DNA of 64,000 nucleotides from Candidatus Binatia bacterium (GTDB lineage Bacteria > Desulfobacterota > Binatia > UBA9968 > JAJDTQ01), in assembly GCA_963666515.2 (NCBI GenBank), contig OY762897.2:352001-416000 (forward strand). The letters are read 5' to 3'. Made by a program: the position numbers and the translations under genes. Under the pieces are notes generated by a model that had not been told where the DNA came from, ran no database searches, and saw only the letters and a list, made by a program, of their open reading frames with translations. Numbering within the stretch: position 1 is the stretch's first letter; every line of letters starts with the position of its first letter. Shown piece after piece: positions 48,558 through 55,480 of this stretch.

Positions 48558-51500
48558 GTGAGCGCGGAGCTGACCGCGGTCGAGGCGGAGAACGAGCGCG
48601 GGATGACGCTCTCGAAGAAAAGCGTGACGGTGCCGGAGGGCGGGGCGGTAACCTACACGGTGAAGCTGAACGCCGCGCCGAGCGGCGACGTGACGGTGAC
48701 GGCGGCGGTGACCGGCGACGACGACATCGTCGTACAACTGGGGTCGTCGCTGAAATTCACGACGACGAGTTGGAGCACCCCGAAGACGGTGAGGCTGGCG
48801 GCGACGGCCGACGGCGACGGCCTGGACGGCACGGCGACGATCACGCACACCGCCACCGGCGGCTCCTACAACAACCTGACGGCGACGCTGACGGCCGCGG
48901 AGGCGGACGATGACCGCAAGCTTATAGGGGTGGCCAACAGCCTGTTCTTGAGCGAGGGAAGCAGCGACAGCTTCAAGATGGGCTTGAACACCGTGCCGTC
49001 CGGGACGGTTACGATAACGGTGAACAAGAAAACCGGCGGCGACCCGTCCCTGGCGGTGGACACGGACCCGGACGCGGCGGGCAACCAGAACACGTTCACC
49101 TTGACCAAGGCATACAATGCGAACGACCCGACGGCGCACCACACGATCAAGGTGTCCGCGGGCGATGATGCTGACGCCTACAACGCCGCCGAAAGCGATT
49201 CGTTCACCTTCACGGCCAGCGGCGGCGGCTACGACGACGCGAGCAAGTCGTTCGACGTCAACGTGACCGACGACGATGCCATCGGGCTGGCGCCGTTCCG
49301 GGGCCTGACGGGCCGGAAGGCGAGCTGGGCCATAGGGGCCGGCGACGTGGCCTGGGTGCGGGAGGGCGGGACGGTCACCGTCCCGGTGCGGCTGGCCTCG
49401 CGGCCGAACGGCGACGTGACGGTGACGGCGACAAGGCCGAACAACCCCAACAACTTCCCGTTTCTCGCCCCGGAGCACGCGGACCTGACCGTTGACCTGG
49501 ACGCCGGCACGCCGGGCGTCCAGGACACGATGACCTTCACCTTCCTGAACTGGAACGTCCCGCAGAACATCACTCTGGCGGCGAAGGAAGAGGCGCCGCA
49601 GAACGCGAACGATCCCGCCGACGACACCACGGACAGCCGGGGGTCGATCCTCCTGGCGGTCGCCAGCACCGCCGATTCCAAGTACACCGCGAGTCAACAG
49701 ATAAACCTCCAGGAGGCGGACAACGACGTCACCGGCCGGGCGTTGACGCTGTCCGCGTCGAGCCTGTCGGTGATCGAGGGCTTGACGACGACCTATACGG
49801 TGGCTCTGGCCAGCAAGCCGGACAACGACGTGGTGGTGACGGTGGCGCGGACCTCCGGCGACACGGACCTGAGCGTGTCGGGAACGTCATCGTTCACCTT
49901 CACGACGACGAACTGGAACACGGGGCAAACGGTGACGCTGGCGGCGGCGCAGGATGACGACGATTTCACCAACGGCAGCGCCGTGTTCACGCACACGGCC
50001 ACCGACGGCGGCTTCACCGGCGTGACCGCCGAGTTGACGGCTACGGAGTTGGACAACGACGTCGTCGCCGGCCGGGCTCTGACGCTGTCGGCGTCGGGCC
50101 TGACGGTGCCCGAGGGCGGGACGGCGGCCTACAACGTGGCGCTGGCGGTAGCGCCGGTTGGAACGGTGACGGTGGCGGTGACGAAGAAGGAGGACGGCGA
50201 CCCCGACCTGACGGCGAGCCCGGACATGCTGACCTTCACGACGCAGAACTGGAGCACCGCGCAAAGGGTGACGCTGAGAGCGGCGGAGGACGGCGACCGG
50301 CAGGCGGGCGGGGCGGTTTTCGTCCATACCGCGACCGGCGGCGGCTACGGCTACGGCGGCGGGGACGCGACGGTGGCCGAACTGGCGGCGACCGAGAGGG
50401 AAAACGACATCCTCGTCGTCGGCCGCGTGCTGTCGCTGGTGACGGTGGGCGTGACGGTGCCGCCGTCGGGCGTGACGGTGCCGGAGGGCGGGACGTCGAC
50501 CTACACGGTTGCGCTGTCGGAGGCGCCGTACGGCCCGGTGACGGTGGCGGTGGCGAAGAAGGAGGGCGGCGACCCGGACCTGACGGTGGACACGGACCCG
50601 AACACGGAGGGCGTCCAGGGCACGCTGACCTTCACGACGACGGATTGGAGCATGCCCCAGACGGTGACGCTGAGGGCGGCGGAGGACGGCGACCGGGAGG
50701 AGGGTAAGGCGGTTTTCGTCCATACTGCGACCGGCGGCGGCTACGGCGAAGGCACGGGTGCGACGGTGGCGGAGTTGACGGCGACGGAGGAGGAAAACGA
50801 CCTTCTCGTCGTCGGCCGCGCGCTCGTGCTGTCGGCGTCGGGCGTGACGGTGCCGGAGGGCGGGACGTCGACCTACACGGTTGCGCTGTCGGAGGCGCCG
50901 TACGGCCCGGTGACGGTGGCGGTGGCGAAGAAGGAGGGCGGCGACCCGGACCTGACGGTGGACACGGACCCGAACACGGAGGGCGTCCAGGGCACGCTGA
51001 CCTTCACGACGACGGACTGGAACGAGCCGCAGGCGGTGACGCTGAGGGCGGCGGAGGATGGCGACCGGGAGGAGGGTAAGGCGGTTTTCGTCCATACTGC
51101 GACCGGCGGCGGCTACGGCGCGGGCGTGGACACGACGGTGGCGGAGTTGACGGCGACCGAAGAAGAAAACGACCTTCTCGTCGTCGGCCGCGCGCTCGTG
51201 CTGTCGGCGTCGGGCGTGACGGTGCCGGAGGGCGGGACATCGACCTACGCGGTTGCGCTGTCGGTTGCGCCGTACGGCCCGGTGACGGTGGCGGTGATGA
51301 AGAAGGAGGGCGGCGACCCGGACCTGACGGTGGACACGGACCCGAACACGGAGGGCGTCCAGGGCACGCTGACCTTCACGACGACGGACTGGAACGAGCC
51401 GCAGGCGGTGACGCTGAGGGCGGCGGAGGATGGCGACCGGGAGGAGGGTAAGGCGGTCTTCGTCCATACGGCGACCGGCGGCGGCTACGGCGCGGGCGTG

Positions 51501-53312
51501 GACACGACGGTGGCGGAGTTGACGGCGACCGAAGAAGAAAACGACCTTCTCGTCGTCGGCCGCGCGCTCGTGCTGTCGGCGTCGGGCGTGATGGTTCCGG
51601 AGGGCAAGACGGCCTCCTACACGGTGGCGCTGGCGGTGGCGCCGTACGACCCGGTGACGGTGACGGTGGCGCGGGCCGCCGGCGACGATACCGACCTGAC
51701 CGCGGCCCCGGCGACGCTGACGTTCACGGCGACGGACTGGAACACGCCGCAGATGGTCACGCTGTCGGCGGCGGAGGACGACGACGGCGAGCGGGGCGAG
51801 GCGGTTTTCATCCATACTGCGACCGGCGGCGGCTACGGTGAGGGCGCGGAAGCGACGGTGGCGGAGTTGACGGCGACCGAGGAGGACAATTTCGTGCCGA
51901 AGGCGCGTGAGCGGCTGGCGCAGGCGAACGAGGCCATCCTGCCCGAGATATTGCGGGCGGTGGTGCAGCACAAGATCGACAACGTGGTGTCGCGGGTCGT
52001 GTCGCAAGCCGTGTCGGGGATGATCGGGACGGACGATGCTCTCGCGGCGGCCGCGCACCTGCTGGCCCGGCACGGCGAGGCGATCCAGGACGGCGTGTTC
52101 TCCTGGCGCGAGGCGCTGGCTGGCGTTGACTTCGCGTTGCCGCTCTCCGACGGCAAGGACGGCGCCGACGGGAAACGCGGTTCGGGAATTGCGTTGTGGG
52201 CCATGGGGGACTACCTCCACCTTTCTGACGACCGTCCGGTGGAGTGGTCCGGCGGCCTGTTCGGCGCCCATGTGGGGAGCGACGTGCGGATCGGGCGAAA
52301 CCTCCGGGCCGGGTTGGGACTTTCCTGGGAGGAGGGCTCGTTCGACTACATCCACCGCTTGGACGACGGCGACGAGGTTGCCGGAACCGAGGAGGTGCGG
52401 ATGACCAGCGTCTATCCCTACGCGGGCTGGCGTTTTCCCGGCGGCTCGAATCTGTGGGCCACCGTCGGCTACGGCCAGGGTGAGGTCGAGTTCGAGGACA
52501 ATGTGCTGGACCGGCAGAGGGGCGACCTGCGGCAGCTTATGGCCGCCGCAGGCGGGACCGCCCGGCTGGCGGAAGCGGAAGGCGCCCTCTTCGGCGGCGA
52601 GGGGACGCTCGACGTCAAGACCCAGGTGTCGCTGGGGCGGCTCGCGGTCGCCGACAACGGTGCGATGATCCCGAAGACCACGGTGTCGGCCTACGGTGCG
52701 CGCGTCGCGTTGGAGGGCTCGGAGGCGATCGGCTTGGCCGGGGGCAGGACGTTGACGCCGTCTCTGGAGGCCGGGCTGCGCTGGGACGGCGGCGATGGCG
52801 AGACCGGGGCCGGCCTGGAGTTGGGCGGCGGGCTCGACTACACGGATCGGGCACTGGGCTTGTCCGCAGGCGCGCGCGGCCGAGCCCTCGTGGCGCACGA
52901 GAGCGGTCTGCGCGAGTGGGGCGCGAGCGGCTGGCTGCGGCTGGTTGCCGACAGTCTCGGGCGCGGCCTGTCGCTGGAGGCATCGCCGTCGTGGGGCAAG
53001 TCGGCGAGCGGCGTCGACGACCTGTGGCAACGCGGGGTGGCGGGTGCGGCGGACGAGGCCCGCGGCGAACCGCCGCAGATGCGTTTCGACGTGGAGGTCG
53101 GCTACGGTCTGGCGGCGCCGCCCGGCCGCCGTGGCCTGCTGACCCCCTATGCCGGCTTCGGTGTGACGGAGGGCGGCTCCCGGAGCTACCGCGCGGGCAC
53201 CCGCTTCGAACTCGGCGCCGCGACCATGATCGACCTGGAGGGAAGCCGCGAGGATGACGCGGCCGGGGCCTCCGAACACGCCGTCGCCCTGCGCATGACG
53301 GTCTACTGGTAG
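48558..53312 (+). pseudogene. 3' fragment of the adhesin: about 9 Ig/Calx-beta-like repeats and autotransporter beta-barrel
   Basis: VPEGGT.TYTV.L...LTFTT.NW repeats; barrel-like GLRWDGGDGETGAGLELGGG; terminal aromatic residue (VYW); no signal peptide. Confidence 0.85.
50465..51580 (+). repeat. Three near-identical 372-bp (124-aa) intragenic tandem repeats
   Basis: gtcgggcgtg anchor recurs at 50465, 50837, 51209 and 51581. Confidence 0.88.
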
Positions 53313-53344: not shown

Positions 53345-54172
53345 TTACGGTCTGGTGGACTGATTCACGGTCTCGTTGAGGGAGCCGGTGCGGTAGCCCT
53401 GCAGGTCGATGCTGACGTAGGTGAAGCCGGCGTCCTTGAAACGCCGCAGGATCTCTTCGCGGATTTCTGGTCGAAGCAGCCTGTCCATCTCCTCCGATGC
53501 CACCTCGATGCGCGCCAGCTCGTCATGGTAGCGCACCCGGTAGACGCGGAAGCCCAGCTCCCGGAGCACGCGCTCGCAACGGTTCACCTGGGTGAGCTTC
53601 TCCGGGGTGATGGCGGTGCCGTAGGGGAAGCGGCTGGAGAGGCAGGCCAGGGCGGGCTTGTCCCAGACCGGGAGGCCCATGCGGCGGGCGGCCTCGCGAA
53701 TGTCGGCCTTGGTGAAGCCCAGCTCGTCCAGCGGCGAACGCACGCCGCGCTCGCGCGCGGCCTTGCGCCCCGGTCGGTGGTCGCCCCGGTCGTCCAGGTT
53801 GAAGCCGTCCAGCACGTGGGCGATGCCGAGCGTCGCGGCTTCCTCGATGGCCTTGCCGTAAAGCTCGGTCTTGCAGAAGTAGCAGCGGTTGACGGGGTTG
53901 GCCGCGTAGCGGGGATCGTCCAGTTCGTAAGTGTCAATGAGCAGGTGCCGGGCGCCGATGCTTTCCGCCAGGCTCCGGGCGTCCGCCCCCTCCTCGGGCG
54001 CCAGGCTGGGGGAGACCGCGGTCAGCGCCAGAGCGTCGTCCCCGAGAACGTTCACGGCCTCCGCCAGCAGGTAGCCGGAGTCGACGCCGCCGGAGAAACA
54101 GACCACCACGTGGCCCATCTCCCCGAGCAGCGCCCGAAGCCCCGCCACCTTTCGCTCCAGCCCCCGCCTCAC
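53345..54172 (-). CDS. larE: ATP-dependent sulfur transferase LarE (CxxC...C type)
   Basis: PP-loop SGGVDS, RCYFCK, RPG, ACLSSRFPYG, GYRTGSLN. Confidence 0.9.
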   Translation of the reverse strand: MRRGLERKVAGLRALLGEMGHVVVCFSGGVDSGYLLAEAVNVLGDDALALTAVSPSLAPEEGADARSLAESIGARHLLIDTYELDDPRYAANPVNRCYFCKTELYGKAIEEAATLGIAHVLDGFNLDDRGDHRPGRKAARERGVRSPLDELGFTKADIREAARRMGLPVWDKPALACLSSRFPYGTAITPEKLTQVNRCERVLRELGFRVYRVRYHDELARIEVASEEMDRLLRPEIREEILRRFKDAGFTYVSIDLQGYRTGSLNETVNQSTRP

Positions 54173-54732
54173 GGCGTCGTCTTCACCTTCGGACGCTCCA
54201 GCAGCGTGTCGCGCCAGCGCTTCACGTTGGGCAGGTCCTCGGTGATGGACGTCCGGTAGTGGTCCTCGCGGGTGAAGAACGGGATGTACGTGATGTCCGC
54301 CAGCGAATAGTCGTCGACGATGTAGTCCCGCCCGGCCATGCGCTCTTCCAGCGTCTCCAGGTGCTCCCGCAGCCGCTTCTTGTTCTTCTCCACCTCGTGG
54401 TCGTGGCGGATGTTGCCCGCGGCGGCCTGAAGCCGGGTGTTGCAGAAGTCGATCCAGATGCGCACCTCGGCGCGCTTCGCCAGGTCCCTGGGCATCAGCG
54501 ACACTTCGGGAAACTTCTCGTCCAGGTACTCGTTGATGACCGCGGATTCGTAGATCACCGTGTCCCCGTCCACCAGCACGGGCACCTTGCCGTACGGGTT
54601 GAGCGTGACCAGCTCCTCCGACTTGTTCTTGAGATCACACTCCACCAGATCGTAAGGGATGTCTTTCTCTGCCAGGACAAGCCTTGTCCTGTGGGCGTAC
54701 GGTCAAGGACCGTAGGACAGCAGTCGCAACAT
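54169..54732 (-). CDS. Glutathione S-transferase family protein, probable selenoprotein (UGA at codon 10)
   Basis: RBS AAGGAGG, then ATG 54732: MLRLLSYGP-UGA-PYAHRTRLVLAEK in frame with GST motifs NPYGKVPVL, YESAVI, SLADI. Confidence 0.85.
54671..54696 (-). promoter_or_regulatory. Putative bacterial SECIS hairpin
   Basis: mRNA CAGGACAA-GGC-UUGUCCUG: 8-bp stem, loop starting with G, 19 nt after the UGA. Confidence 0.7.
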
Positions 54733-54779
54733 GTCTTCCTCCTTCGATTCCGCGGCCGGCTTTCGCGCGGCCGCCGTTC

Positions 54780-54805
54780 GGGCGGGCTTGAAACCCGCCC
54801 CCTGC
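54780..54805 (-). repeat. REP-like palindrome, family C
   Basis: gggcgggcttgaaacccgccccctgc, related to 37172-37196. Confidence 0.6.
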
Positions 54806-54811
54806 TCCAAT

Positions 54812-55198
54812 TTACGCGATGATCGGCTCCTTGACCGGCGTGTGGCTGGGCCGCCGCGGCACCCGTGTGCGCGGCTTGCCGTCGACCTGCGAGTTGCCCG
54901 CGCCGAACAGCAGCATGCGTCCCTCGCCCGTGTTGCAGAGCTGGTAGGGCTGGCCCGATTTCAGCAGGATCGTGTCGTGGGGGTTCAGGATGAACTCGTT
55001 CTCCGGCGTCCGCACCGTGCACTGCCCTTCGAGGACCATGAAGACGTGGTCGTCGTTCTCGTGGTAGTGCATGTCGTCCTGCATGTTCTCTTCGCAGTTG
55101 ATGGTCCAGAAATAGGTCAGGTCCGTGCGCCACAATGAAAGGTGGCGGACTTCCGGGTTGGCCTTGGCCTCGTCGATGGGGTTCTTCACCTCGTACAT
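54812..55198 (-). CDS. Cupin domain protein
   Basis: MHYHENDDHVFMVLEG; RBS AGGAGG. Confidence 0.82.
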   Translation of the reverse strand: MYEVKNPIDEAKANPEVRHLSLWRTDLTYFWTINCEENMQDDMHYHENDDHVFMVLEGQCTVRTPENEFILNPHDTILLKSGQPYQLCNTGEGRMLLFGAGNSQVDGKPRTRVPRRPSHTPVKEPIIA

Positions 55199-55231: not shown

Positions 55232-55480
55232 CTACTTGTTCGCCACCAGCTTTCCGTGGGTGCCGTCGCAATACGGCCGGGTCCTGGACCGCCAGCACGC
55301 GCAGATGGCCATGGTACGCGGCTCGTCCACGGTGATCTCGCGGGGCGTGATGGAAGTCACCTTGTGCGACCCGTCGCAGAACGGGAAGTTCTGTGTCCGC
55401 CCGCACATGCAGTAGAACCGGCTCCGGGACTCCTGCCGGACGATCACCGGCTCGATCAGGTCGTCGTAGGCCAAGCCCAT
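55232..55480 (-). CDS. Double CDGSH iron-sulfur domain protein
   Basis: CMCGRTQNFPFCDGSH and CACWRSRTRPYCDGTH. Confidence 0.92.
   Translation of the reverse strand: MGLAYDDLIEPVIVRQESRSRFYCMCGRTQNFPFCDGSHKVTSITPREITVDEPRTMAICACWRSRTRPYCDGTHGKLVANK

What the first reader, a model, noticed from the sequence alone, without database searches (positions are those of the whole stretch)
54169..54732. Hidden selenocysteine GST: UGA at the catalytic Cys position plus a SECIS-like hairpin
Seen: AAGGAGG precedes ATG 54732. The frame reads MLRLLSYGP-TGA(54705-54703)-PYAHR... and continues into a complete 187-residue GST. An 8-bp stem with a GGC loop starts its loop 19 nt after the UGA. Known: Omega-like Cys-GSTs have a CPY/FA active site, and bacterial SECIS elements lie just 3' of the UGA with G early in the apical loop. 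Sec-containing GST-like proteins have been reported before, so the class is not new. Inference: this is a UPYA selenoenzyme that gene callers shorten to 158 aa.
Basis: partly seen in the sequence, partly recalled or inferred. Interest (0 to 1): 0.8.

Follow-up and report, generated by a model that had tools for sequence, protein, structure and literature searches.

The report
Selenocysteine GST gene, annotated as truncated
This is a real glutathione-transferase gene whose catalytic cysteine is replaced by selenocysteine, encoded by a UGA "stop" followed by a conserved RNA hairpin; this kind of selenoprotein is already known, but gene finders routinely cut this branch short.

Summary
On the minus strand there is an AAGGAGG site, ATG at 54732, an in-frame TGA at 54705-54703, and an open frame to 54169. 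This gives a 187-residue GST.

The TGA is not an error. A TGA-bearing orthologue occurs in 58 of 61 genomes of this order, own genome included. It sat in the same column in all 73 loci inspected, which are 53 distinct genes.

The nine codons before the TGA evolve as coding sequence. The hairpin 11 nt after the UGA is frozen at synonymous sites and shows two compensatory changes. Homologues carry Cys at this column.

The genome has tRNA-Sec, selA, selB and a Sec-containing selD. An AlphaFold model puts the residue at the N-cap of helix 1, the catalytic position of Cys-type GSTs.

GST-like selenoproteins have been listed since 2005. This scan already reported the same family on another genome. 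I call it a new member of a known kind, in a Candidatus Binatia lineage. Its value is mainly for annotation. No direct evidence of selenium incorporation exists.

The parts
54738..54744 (-). Shine-Dalgarno site AAGGAGG, 5 nt before the ATG
   Evidence: The GGAGG core is kept in all 26 distinct same-genus genes, while the other leader bases vary.
54730..54732 (-). Start codon ATG of the full-length gene
   Evidence: Amino-acid conservation begins exactly here in all 40 loci. Same-genus variation: 8 of 27 sites in codons 1-9, against 19 of 27 and 27 of 27 sites in the two 27-nt blocks upstream.
54703..54705 (-). In-frame TGA, read as selenocysteine (residue U10, motif U-P-Y-A)
   Evidence: TGA is in this column in 40 of 40 and 33 of 33 loci and is invariant in 53 distinct genes. 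Cys stands here in homologues.
54673..54691 (-). SECIS-like hairpin: 8-bp stem CAGGACAA/TTGTCCTG with loop GGC (54683-54681). It starts 11 nt after the UGA and lies inside codons 14-20.
   Evidence: 97.3% of cells are paired, with 2 compensatory pairs against 0 of 500 shuffles. Codons Arg15 AGG, Arg17 AGG and Val19 GTC are each 48 of 48. Cys-form homologues L096 and L099 do not carry this hairpin sequence.
54169..54732 (-). Full coding sequence of the 187-residue Sec-GST, including stop TGA at 54171-54169
   Evidence: GST_N_2 80.2 bits, GST_N_3 73.5 and GST_C 44.0, all above gathering scores. AlphaFold2 model with mean pLDDT 97.0. Foldseek TM 0.89 to the GSH-bound SspA-like GST 4qq7.
54169..54645 (-). 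The truncated 158-aa ORF (GTG start) that table-11 callers report instead
   Evidence: P0002 and most of the 120 best database hits are 158-159 aa pieces that cover 84-85% of the query.
53345..54172 (-). Downstream larE-like gene whose GTG start overlaps the GST stop (GTGA). It is context, not part of the recoding unit.
   Evidence: TIGR00268 LarE scores 329 bits against a cut-off of 150. This neighbour was found in 3 of 3 same-genus loci checked and in 0 of 7 more distant loci.

Best explanation
The gene at 54732-54169 (minus strand) encodes a 187-residue cytosolic-type glutathione transferase of the Cys-type group. In this group the catalytic residue is a nucleophile at the N-cap of helix 1, in a C-P-[FY]-x motif. 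Here that residue is selenocysteine (U10, motif UPYA).

Translation starts at ATG 54732. At UGA 54705-54703, SelB carrying Sec-tRNA(Sec) is recruited by the hairpin that starts 11 nt downstream and presents a GG-containing apical loop. Sec is inserted and translation continues. This step is inferred.

The enzyme most likely works like Omega, Lambda, DHAR or Grx2-type GSTs. The selenolate attacks a glutathionylated or disulfide substrate, forms a Se-S mixed intermediate with glutathione, and is regenerated by a second GSH. That makes it a thiol transferase, deglutathionylase or reductase rather than a conjugating GST. The chemistry is inferred from the family, and the substrate is unknown.

What is shown: the conserved UGA, the conserved hairpin, Cys homologues, the Sec machinery and the GST fold. 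What is inferred: actual Sec insertion, the chemistry and the substrate.
For: 1. Conserved UGA. A TGA-bearing orthologue is present in the own genome, 26 of 27 same-genus genomes and 31 of 33 same-order genomes, down to 52% identity. The TGA is in the same column in 40 of 40 loci and 33 of 33 loci. These 73 loci are 53 distinct genes.

2. The upstream part is translated. In 26 distinct same-genus genes, codons 1-9 have 8 variable sites. Seven are in columns with an unchanged residue, and none is at a second codon position. The two 27-nt blocks upstream have 19 of 27 and 27 of 27 variable sites. Codons 11-29 are conserved as protein, and no ATG, GTG or TTG lies between the TGA and GTG 54645.

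3. Hairpin. Mean codon entropy is 0.22 bits for the 5 conserved stem codons, against 1.11 bits for 57 other conserved degenerate columns. Arg15 and Arg17 are AGG in 48 of 48, while other conserved Arg columns have 1.5-2.2 bits. The helix is 97.3% paired with 2 compensatory pairs, against 0 of 500 shuffles. The stem starts at nt 15 from the U, as in the UPWC DsbA-like selenoprotein gene of this genome.

4. Cys homologues. P0038 has CPYA at 58% identity. L096 has TGT and L099 has TGC. Of 100 full-length relatives, 80 have Cys and 13 have Ser (P0001's placeholder is excluded).

5. Machinery. tRNA-Sec scores 73.1 bits and has anticodon tca. It is the only tca tRNA among 51. selA, selB and selD are present, and selD has its own in-frame TGA. 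TGA is the commonest stop of long ORFs, 1146 of 1943.

6. Fold. pLDDT is 97.0, strand 1 spans residues 2-6 and helix 1 spans 11-22, which puts U10 at the helix N-cap. The CPF cysteine of 4qq7, 6v91 and 4hoj aligns with it. Near-invariant V50-P51 and E62-S63 are kept; from my own knowledge these are the canonical GSH-site motifs.
Against: There is no direct evidence of selenium in the protein: no proteomics and no labelling.

The hairpin alone is no more stable than shuffled sequence (z = -0.24). Five of its 8 pairs never vary, so covariation rests on two single-sequence events.

Part of the nucleotide conservation could come from the strongly conserved peptide HRTRLVL. This would not explain fixed AGG and GTC codons.

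No Rfam family matched at E <= 1.

The RNA-library contig that spans the gene comes from a roughly 92%-alike relative. Such libraries can hold DNA, and 25 rows of the difference table were hidden.

Three of the 60 relatives lack the orthologue: G017, G043 and G056, at 93, 87 and 78% completeness.
Confidence: 0.92

Rival explanations
1. The UGA is a true stop. A 9-residue leader peptide is made, and the functional product is a shorter GST started downstream (the 158-aa GTG ORF). The hairpin would act as a regulatory or attenuator element.
For: Table-11 ORF calling gives exactly this product, and databases hold it. The hairpin is not unusually stable.
Against: Codons 11-29 evolve as protein: 9 of their 14 variable sites lie in columns with an unchanged residue. 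There is no start codon between the TGA and GTG 54645. The 158-aa form would lack strand 1, helix 1, most of strand 2 and the catalytic motif of the thioredoxin-like domain. Cys homologues are full length with Cys at this column.
Confidence: 0.03
2. The UGA is read through, but with a standard amino acid (Trp, Cys, Gly or Arg by near-cognate decoding) and not selenocysteine.
For: One database entry, P0029, reads W at this column; this is a caller's choice, not data. Nothing measured here shows selenium.
Against: The only tRNA with anticodon tca is tRNA-Sec. TGA is the main stop codon. The complete Sec machinery is present. A hairpin with the spacing and G-containing loop of bacterial SECIS elements is frozen downstream. 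The replaced residue is a catalytic Cys.
Confidence: 0.04
3. The gene is a pseudogene, or the TGA is a sequencing or assembly error for TGC/TGT.
For: A single in-frame stop in one assembly could arise in this way.
Against: The same TGA is found in 53 distinct genes from separate assemblies. The frame is otherwise intact, with a synonymous-type substitution pattern. An independent-study DNA contig (X5) covers the site; 16 of its 17 differences are listed, and none is at 54703-54705.
Confidence: 0.01

Closest known systems
GST-like selenoprotein family (Zhang, Fomenko & Gladyshev 2005, Sargasso Sea; COG0625 / PF13409; listed in the 2008 GOS study and in the 2022 and 2026 reviews)
   Same: It is a bacterial GST-superfamily protein with one Sec, a bacterial-type SECIS just after the UGA, and widespread Cys homologues. 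It hits PF13409 at 80.2 bits. I saw the passages in the tables of PMC1088965 (4 sequences), PMC2398784 (12 sequences against 1,036 Cys homologues), PMC9312934 and PMC13188914.
   Different: The published sequences come from marine surface metagenomes. So it is open whether this Binatia UPYA branch is the same lineage or a separate Cys-to-Sec event. The tables give '-' as the motif.
Bacterial SspA-like / RegF GST homologues with a CPF motif (PDB 4qq7, 6v91, 4hoj)
   Same: These are the best solved relatives by sequence (E 2.5e-31 to 4.3e-28) and by fold (TM 0.83-0.89). Their CPF cysteine aligns with U10. By their titles, 4qq7 and 4hoj hold bound glutathione.
   Different: They have Cys, not Sec, at 29-32% identity. 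The NCBIfam SspA equivalog scores 100.2 bits against a cut-off of 314, so this is not SspA.
Omega-class GSTs (human GSTO1/GSTO2) and other Cys-type GSTs
   Same: The motif type C-P-[FY]-A sits at the N-cap of helix 1. Sequence matches are E about 1e-21 over residues 2-184, and fold TM is 0.88-0.90 to GSTO2. From my own knowledge, the expected chemistry is thiol transfer or reduction through a mixed disulfide with GSH.
   Different: Query residue 2 aligns with chain residue 24 of GSTO1, so the N-terminal extension of Omega GSTs is absent. Tau-class GSTs, which use Ser, score equally well. Class membership is therefore not established.
DsbA-like UxxC selenoprotein of the same genome (earlier finding e1-4339687)
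   Same: It has the same recoding design: UGA at the first active-site Cys of a thioredoxin-fold protein, with a hairpin stem that begins at nt 15 from the U.
   Different: It belongs to a different protein family (DsbA/FrnE), has motif UPWC and has a larger loop.

Membership tests
Bacterial selenoprotein gene (Sec-recoded UGA) | In-frame UGA conserved among orthologues | tested here: met
   58 of 61 genomes of the order, own genome included, hold a TGA-bearing orthologue. TGA is in the same column in all 73 inspected loci, which are 53 distinct genes.
Bacterial selenoprotein gene (Sec-recoded UGA) | Cys-containing homologues align with the UGA | tested here: met
   P0038 has CPYA. L096 has TGT and L099 has TGC. 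80 of 100 full-length relatives have Cys at the column.
Bacterial selenoprotein gene (Sec-recoded UGA) | Stem-loop just 3' of the UGA with a small apical loop containing G (bacterial SECIS; feature as worded in PMC1088965) | tested here: met
   An 8-bp stem with loop GGC or GGA starts 11 nt after the UGA. It is conserved with 2 compensatory changes and frozen synonymous sites. Caveat: its stability is not above shuffles. bSECISearch itself was not available.
Bacterial selenoprotein gene (Sec-recoded UGA) | Sec machinery (selA, selB, selC, selD) in the genome | tested here: met
   All are above curated cut-offs: tRNA-Sec 73.1 bits, selA 586.9, selB 370.9 and selD 381.4.
Bacterial selenoprotein gene (Sec-recoded UGA) | Selenium actually incorporated at the UGA | not testable with these tools
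   This needs 75Se labelling or mass spectrometry.
GST superfamily (cytosolic type) | Thioredoxin-like N-domain plus helical C-domain | tested here: met
   GST_N_2, GST_N_3, GST_N and GST_C are all above Pfam gathering scores. The AlphaFold2 model has pLDDT 97.0. All 500 best Foldseek matches counted have E <= 0.001, and all listed ones are GSTs or SspA.
Cys-type GST (catalytic Cys at the N-cap of helix 1) | Nucleophile in a C-P-[FY]-x motif between strand 1 and helix 1 | tested here: met
   U10-P-Y-A, with strand 1 at residues 2-6 and helix 1 at 11-22. It aligns with the CPF cysteine of 4qq7, 6v91 and 4hoj.
Omega-class GST | N-terminal extension before strand 1 (a class feature recalled from memory) and closest similarity to Omega GSTs | tested here: not met
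   The protein starts 9 residues before the catalytic residue, and query residue 2 aligns with GSTO1 residue 24. SspA-like and tau GSTs score better than Omega.
SspA (NCBIfam NF007016) | Score above the equivalog cut-off | tested here: not met
   100.2 bits against a cut-off of 314.
Published GST-like selenoprotein family (COG0625 / PF13409) | Sec at the same position as in the published sequences | not testable with these tools
   The tables give no position or motif.

The most novel reading that the evidence does not exclude
The UPYA Sec-GST of Binatia is a separate and old Cys-to-Sec event, distinct from the marine GST-like selenoproteins of 2005 and 2008. On this reading it arose once at the base of this order and was kept in nearly every genome, with an almost invariant SECIS. 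It duplicated in one family and reverted to Cys at least once (P0038 is nested inside the Sec clade). That would make it a core, selenium-dependent redox enzyme of an uncultured phylum. In this genus it would also be translationally coupled to the sulfur transferase LarE through the overlapping GTGA.
Probability: 0.3. Interest if true: 0.45.

Novelty: new member of a known kind. Interest (0 to 1): 0.3.

Why it matters
The gene is mis-annotated as a 158-159 aa fragment in most public records of this lineage. In that form the catalytic residue and the selenium dependence are invisible to metabolic reconstructions of Binatia, an uncultured group.

Correcting it is therefore a systematic annotation fix.

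The near-invariant hairpin also gives a clean, lineage-specific SECIS example for training bacterial selenoprotein predictors. It does not change what is known about selenoproteins.

Tried and rejected
- **Rfam scan** of 54500-54800 at E <= 1: no match.
- **Hairpin thermodynamics alone:** not significant.
- **Gene neighbourhood as a clue to function.** LarE downstream and a cupin upstream are shared only within the genus. Of 10 loci checked, LarE was next to the gene in 3 and the cupin in 2, and the 7 more distant loci had neither. I draw no operon-based function from this.
- **Expression.** Contigs of four runs were laid.
  - An 809-nt contig of an RNA library (X18) covers 54165-54801 at about 92% likeness. 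A second RNA-library run (X19) covers only up to about 54651.
  - These are contigs of relatives, and RNA libraries may hold DNA, so I do not count them as proof of transcription.
  - Twenty-five rows of the difference table were hidden, so identity at 54703-54705 in X18 is not certain.
  - Runs that hold the stretch are labelled sponge, coral or marine metagenomes. Most shares were small, and I do not name a habitat on them.
- **Literature on this lineage.** 'Binatia' with 'selenocysteine' gave 0 papers. 'Binatota' with 'seleno' gave 2 papers. I opened one, where the only occurrence is in the reference list. The other was seen as a listing only. A looser search was uninformative.
- **Tree.** The careful search did not finish. 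Only the quick tree (SH-aLRT, midpoint root) is reported.
- **Slips corrected.** (structure string of the wrong length) was corrected. (script error) was corrected.

Full report
**Observation**

On the minus strand the sequence reads AAGGAGG (54744-54738), 5 nt, then ATG (54732-54730). Then come TTG CGA CTG CTG TCC TAC GGT CCT, then TGA (54705-54703), then CCG TAC GCC CAC.... Reading TGA as U gives one open frame of 187 residues that ends at TGA 54171-54169. Table-11 ORF calling returns only a 158-aa piece from GTG 54645. The public protein collection holds that same piece for this window (P0002), and most of the 120 best hits are pieces of 158-159 aa.

The hairpin is as described: stem CAGGACAA/TTGTCCTG at 54691-54673 with loop GGC. 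The stem starts 11 nt after the UGA, and 19 nt lie between the UGA and the loop.

**What the protein is**

Pfam gives GST_N_2 (80.2 bits), GST_N_3 (73.5), GST_N (67.0) and GST_C (44.0), all above gathering scores. No NCBIfam equivalog is reached; SspA scores 100.2 bits against a cut-off of 314.

The closest solved structures by sequence are SspA-like GST homologues of Burkholderia (4qq7, 6v91; E about 3e-31) and RegF of Neisseria (4hoj). The cysteine of their C-P-F motif aligns with residue 10. Tau-class GSTs and human Omega GSTs follow.

An AlphaFold2 model, built on a 75-row alignment, has mean pLDDT 97.0. Strand 1 spans residues 2-6 and helix 1 spans residues 11-22. Residue 10 therefore sits at the N-cap of helix 1, the nucleophile position of thioredoxin-fold enzymes. 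Foldseek ranks the same GSTs first, with TM 0.89 to the GSH-bound 4qq7.

**Is the UGA real and conserved?**

A six-frame search covered the own genome and 60 relatives. It found an orthologue with exactly one in-frame TGA in the own genome, in 26 of 27 same-genus genomes and in 31 of 33 same-order genomes. Identity ranged down to 52%. The three without it (G017, G043, G056) are 93, 87 and 78% complete. Paralogues at 46% identity or less carry no stop.

I inspected 40 loci, and all 40 have TGA in the same column, eight or nine codons after a start codon. A scan of species-representative genomes added 33 loci, L062-L094, all with TGA. Three further loci (L095, L097, L098) gave no true match to my motif search and are uninformative. 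L096 (36% identity) has TGT and L099 has TGC at the column. Together these are 73 loci and 53 distinct gene sequences.

Record titles call the carriers Candidatus Binatia, or 'Deltaproteobacteria', Thermodesulfobacteriota or Syntrophobacter MAGs.

**Is the part before the UGA translated?**

Among 26 distinct same-genus genes, codons 1-9 have 8 variable sites of 27. Seven are in columns whose residue does not change, and none is at a second codon position. The 27 nt upstream have 19 variable sites spread evenly over the three phases, apart from the conserved GGAGG. The next 27 nt have 27 of 27 variable sites.

Codons 11-29 also evolve as protein, and no ATG, GTG or TTG lies between the TGA and GTG 54645. 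Those conserved residues can therefore only be made by reading through the UGA.

**The hairpin**

Folded alone, it is not more stable than shuffled sequence: -11.6 kcal/mol, z = -0.24, and 70 of 200 shuffles fold as well. A comparable hairpin follows only 546 of 113,028 TGA triplets in contig C1. 'Comparable' means a perfect stem of 8 bp or more and a loop of 3-10 nt that starts 16-37 nt from the U, with G among its first two bases.

The stronger evidence is evolutionary. I used the 48 of 53 distinct genes that share one length; 5 were dropped for differing length. In these, Arg15 is AGG in 48 of 48, Arg17 is AGG in 48 of 48 and Val19 is GTC in 48 of 48. Mean codon entropy is 0.22 bits for the stem codons, against 1.11 bits for 57 other conserved degenerate columns. 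Other conserved Arg columns have 1.5-2.2 bits.

On the 53-row alignment (32 distinct rows), 97.3% of cells pair. Two pairs show a change on both sides (C-G to U-A, and A-U to G-C), a result reached by 0 of 500 shuffles. Five pairs never vary, so the covariation is thin. The two Cys-form genes seen do not carry this hairpin sequence.

In the same genome, the selD gene has an in-frame TGA followed by a hairpin with a small G-started loop. The UPWC DsbA-like gene has a hairpin whose stem also begins at nt 15. No Rfam family matched the region.

**Machinery and genetic code**

The genome holds tRNA-Sec (73.1 bits; ARAGORN calls it SeC with anticodon tca), selA (586.9 bits), selB (370.9 bits) and selD (381.4 bits). 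Of 51 tRNAs, only tRNA-Sec has anticodon tca. TGA ends 1146 of 1943 long ORFs, so the code is standard.

**Cys homologues and history**

An exhaustive search of 1.84 billion cluster representatives gave 14,093 hits. I aligned the 101 sequences of 175-260 aa chosen from 152 candidates, a set that includes P0001 and P0038. The column holds C in 81 (one is P0001's placeholder), S in 13, a gap in 6 and N in 1. The commonest motifs are CPFA, CPYA and CPFC.

I built a quick maximum-likelihood tree of 53 Sec forms, 24 Cys forms and 5 Ser forms. The Cys and Ser forms are 29 that I picked from the top's list. The careful search did not finish, and the root is at the midpoint. The tree puts all 53 Sec forms in one clade (SH-aLRT 96). 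The Cys form P0038 is nested inside it, in a subgroup with support 98, which suggests one Sec origin and a later return to Cys. Two genes of G037 fall in different subclades, which points to a duplication.

**Reads**

A DNA contig from a different study (X5) covers 54160-54850. Sixteen of its 17 differences are listed, and none is at 54703-54705. The change at 54706 is a synonymous CCT to CCC. Contigs of X2 are identical to the window here, but X2 may come from the source study. An RNA-library contig (X18, 809 nt) covers 54165-54801. It comes from a roughly 92%-alike relative, and part of its difference table was hidden. I treat this only as weak support.

**Mechanism**

- Shown: a conserved UGA at a catalytic Cys column, a conserved downstream hairpin, complete Sec machinery and a GST fold with the near-invariant V50-P51 and E62-S63 motifs.
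- Inferred: SelB-dependent Sec insertion.
- Inferred from my own knowledge of Cys-type GSTs: the selenolate forms a Se-S intermediate with glutathione or a glutathionylated substrate and is recycled by GSH. The enzyme would then be a thiol transferase or reductase.

The substrate is unknown. The neighbourhood is genus-specific and gives no firm clue. It consists of CDGSH and cupin genes upstream, and a larE-like gene that overlaps the stop.

**Comparison and novelty**

'Glutathione S-transferase' selenoproteins appear in the tables I read:
- the Sargasso Sea study, with 4 sequences (PMC1088965);
- the GOS study, with 12 sequences against 1,036 Cys homologues (PMC2398784);
- the reviews of 2022 and 2026 (PMC9312934 and PMC13188914).

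For all four papers I saw passages only. Identity of lineage therefore remains open.

The searches found no paper that treats selenoproteins of this lineage. 'Binatia' with 'selenocysteine' gave 0 papers. 'Binatota' with 'seleno' gave 2 papers. I opened one, where the term occurs only in a reference, and saw the other only as a listing.

This scan had already reported the same family on another genome (e1-4510551), and a DsbA-like selenoprotein in this genome (e1-4339687).

**Verdict**

This is a genuine, correctly read selenoprotein gene. It is a new member of a known kind, with moderate-to-low interest, and its value lies mainly in annotation.

Noticed in passing
L261 (G036:C221:3021-4002) and L262 (G053:C51:4047-5031), minus strand: Two relatives carry a second, distinct GST paralogue (34-35% identical) with an in-frame TGA at the same column. 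Its motif is U-P-W-C (MIQMYHWPT-TGA-PWCQKVRIAL), and a short hairpin with a G-started 3-nt loop follows. It looks like a separate Sec-GST family. It was not among the three matches reported for the window's own genome.
   Followed up: partly
window 53345-54172 (-): This is a larE-like gene (TIGR00268, ATP-dependent sacrificial sulfur transferase, 329 bits against a cut-off of 150). Its GTG start overlaps the GST stop in GTGA, which suggests translational coupling. The arrangement was seen only within the genus. Pfam gave no hit for it at E <= 0.001.
   Followed up: partly
window 54812-55198 (-) and 55232-55480 (-): A Cupin_2 protein (128 aa) and a CDGSH iron-sulfur protein (82 aa, two CDGSH stretches) lie just upstream on the same strand as the Sec-GST. 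The cupin neighbour was found in 2 of 3 same-genus loci checked.
   Followed up: partly
G000:C1:4043412-4047708 (outside the window): selA, selB and selD lie side by side. selD itself has an in-frame TGA (…KAAG-TGA-AAKLGP…) followed by a hairpin of about 9 bp with loop GUC, so selD is itself a selenoprotein.
   Followed up: partly
window 48558-53312 (+): A very long ORF (1584 aa) contains many near-identical repeats of about 110 residues and a C-terminal part that looks like an autotransporter or outer-membrane domain. It runs convergent to the larE-like gene. It was not analysed.
   Followed up: no
L148, L161, L162, L217, L155 (genome contigs): A few records that hold the exact UGA-plus-hairpin pattern are titled Verrucomicrobiia, Limnocylindrales, Chloroflexota or Alphaproteobacteria MAGs instead of Binatia. 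This could be mis-binning, mislabelling or transfer.
   Followed up: no
P0029 (database protein, 211 aa): A public gene call reads W at the Sec column (…FSYGPWPYAHR…) and starts upstream of the true ATG. The TGA was apparently translated under a TGA=Trp code by the caller.
   Followed up: no
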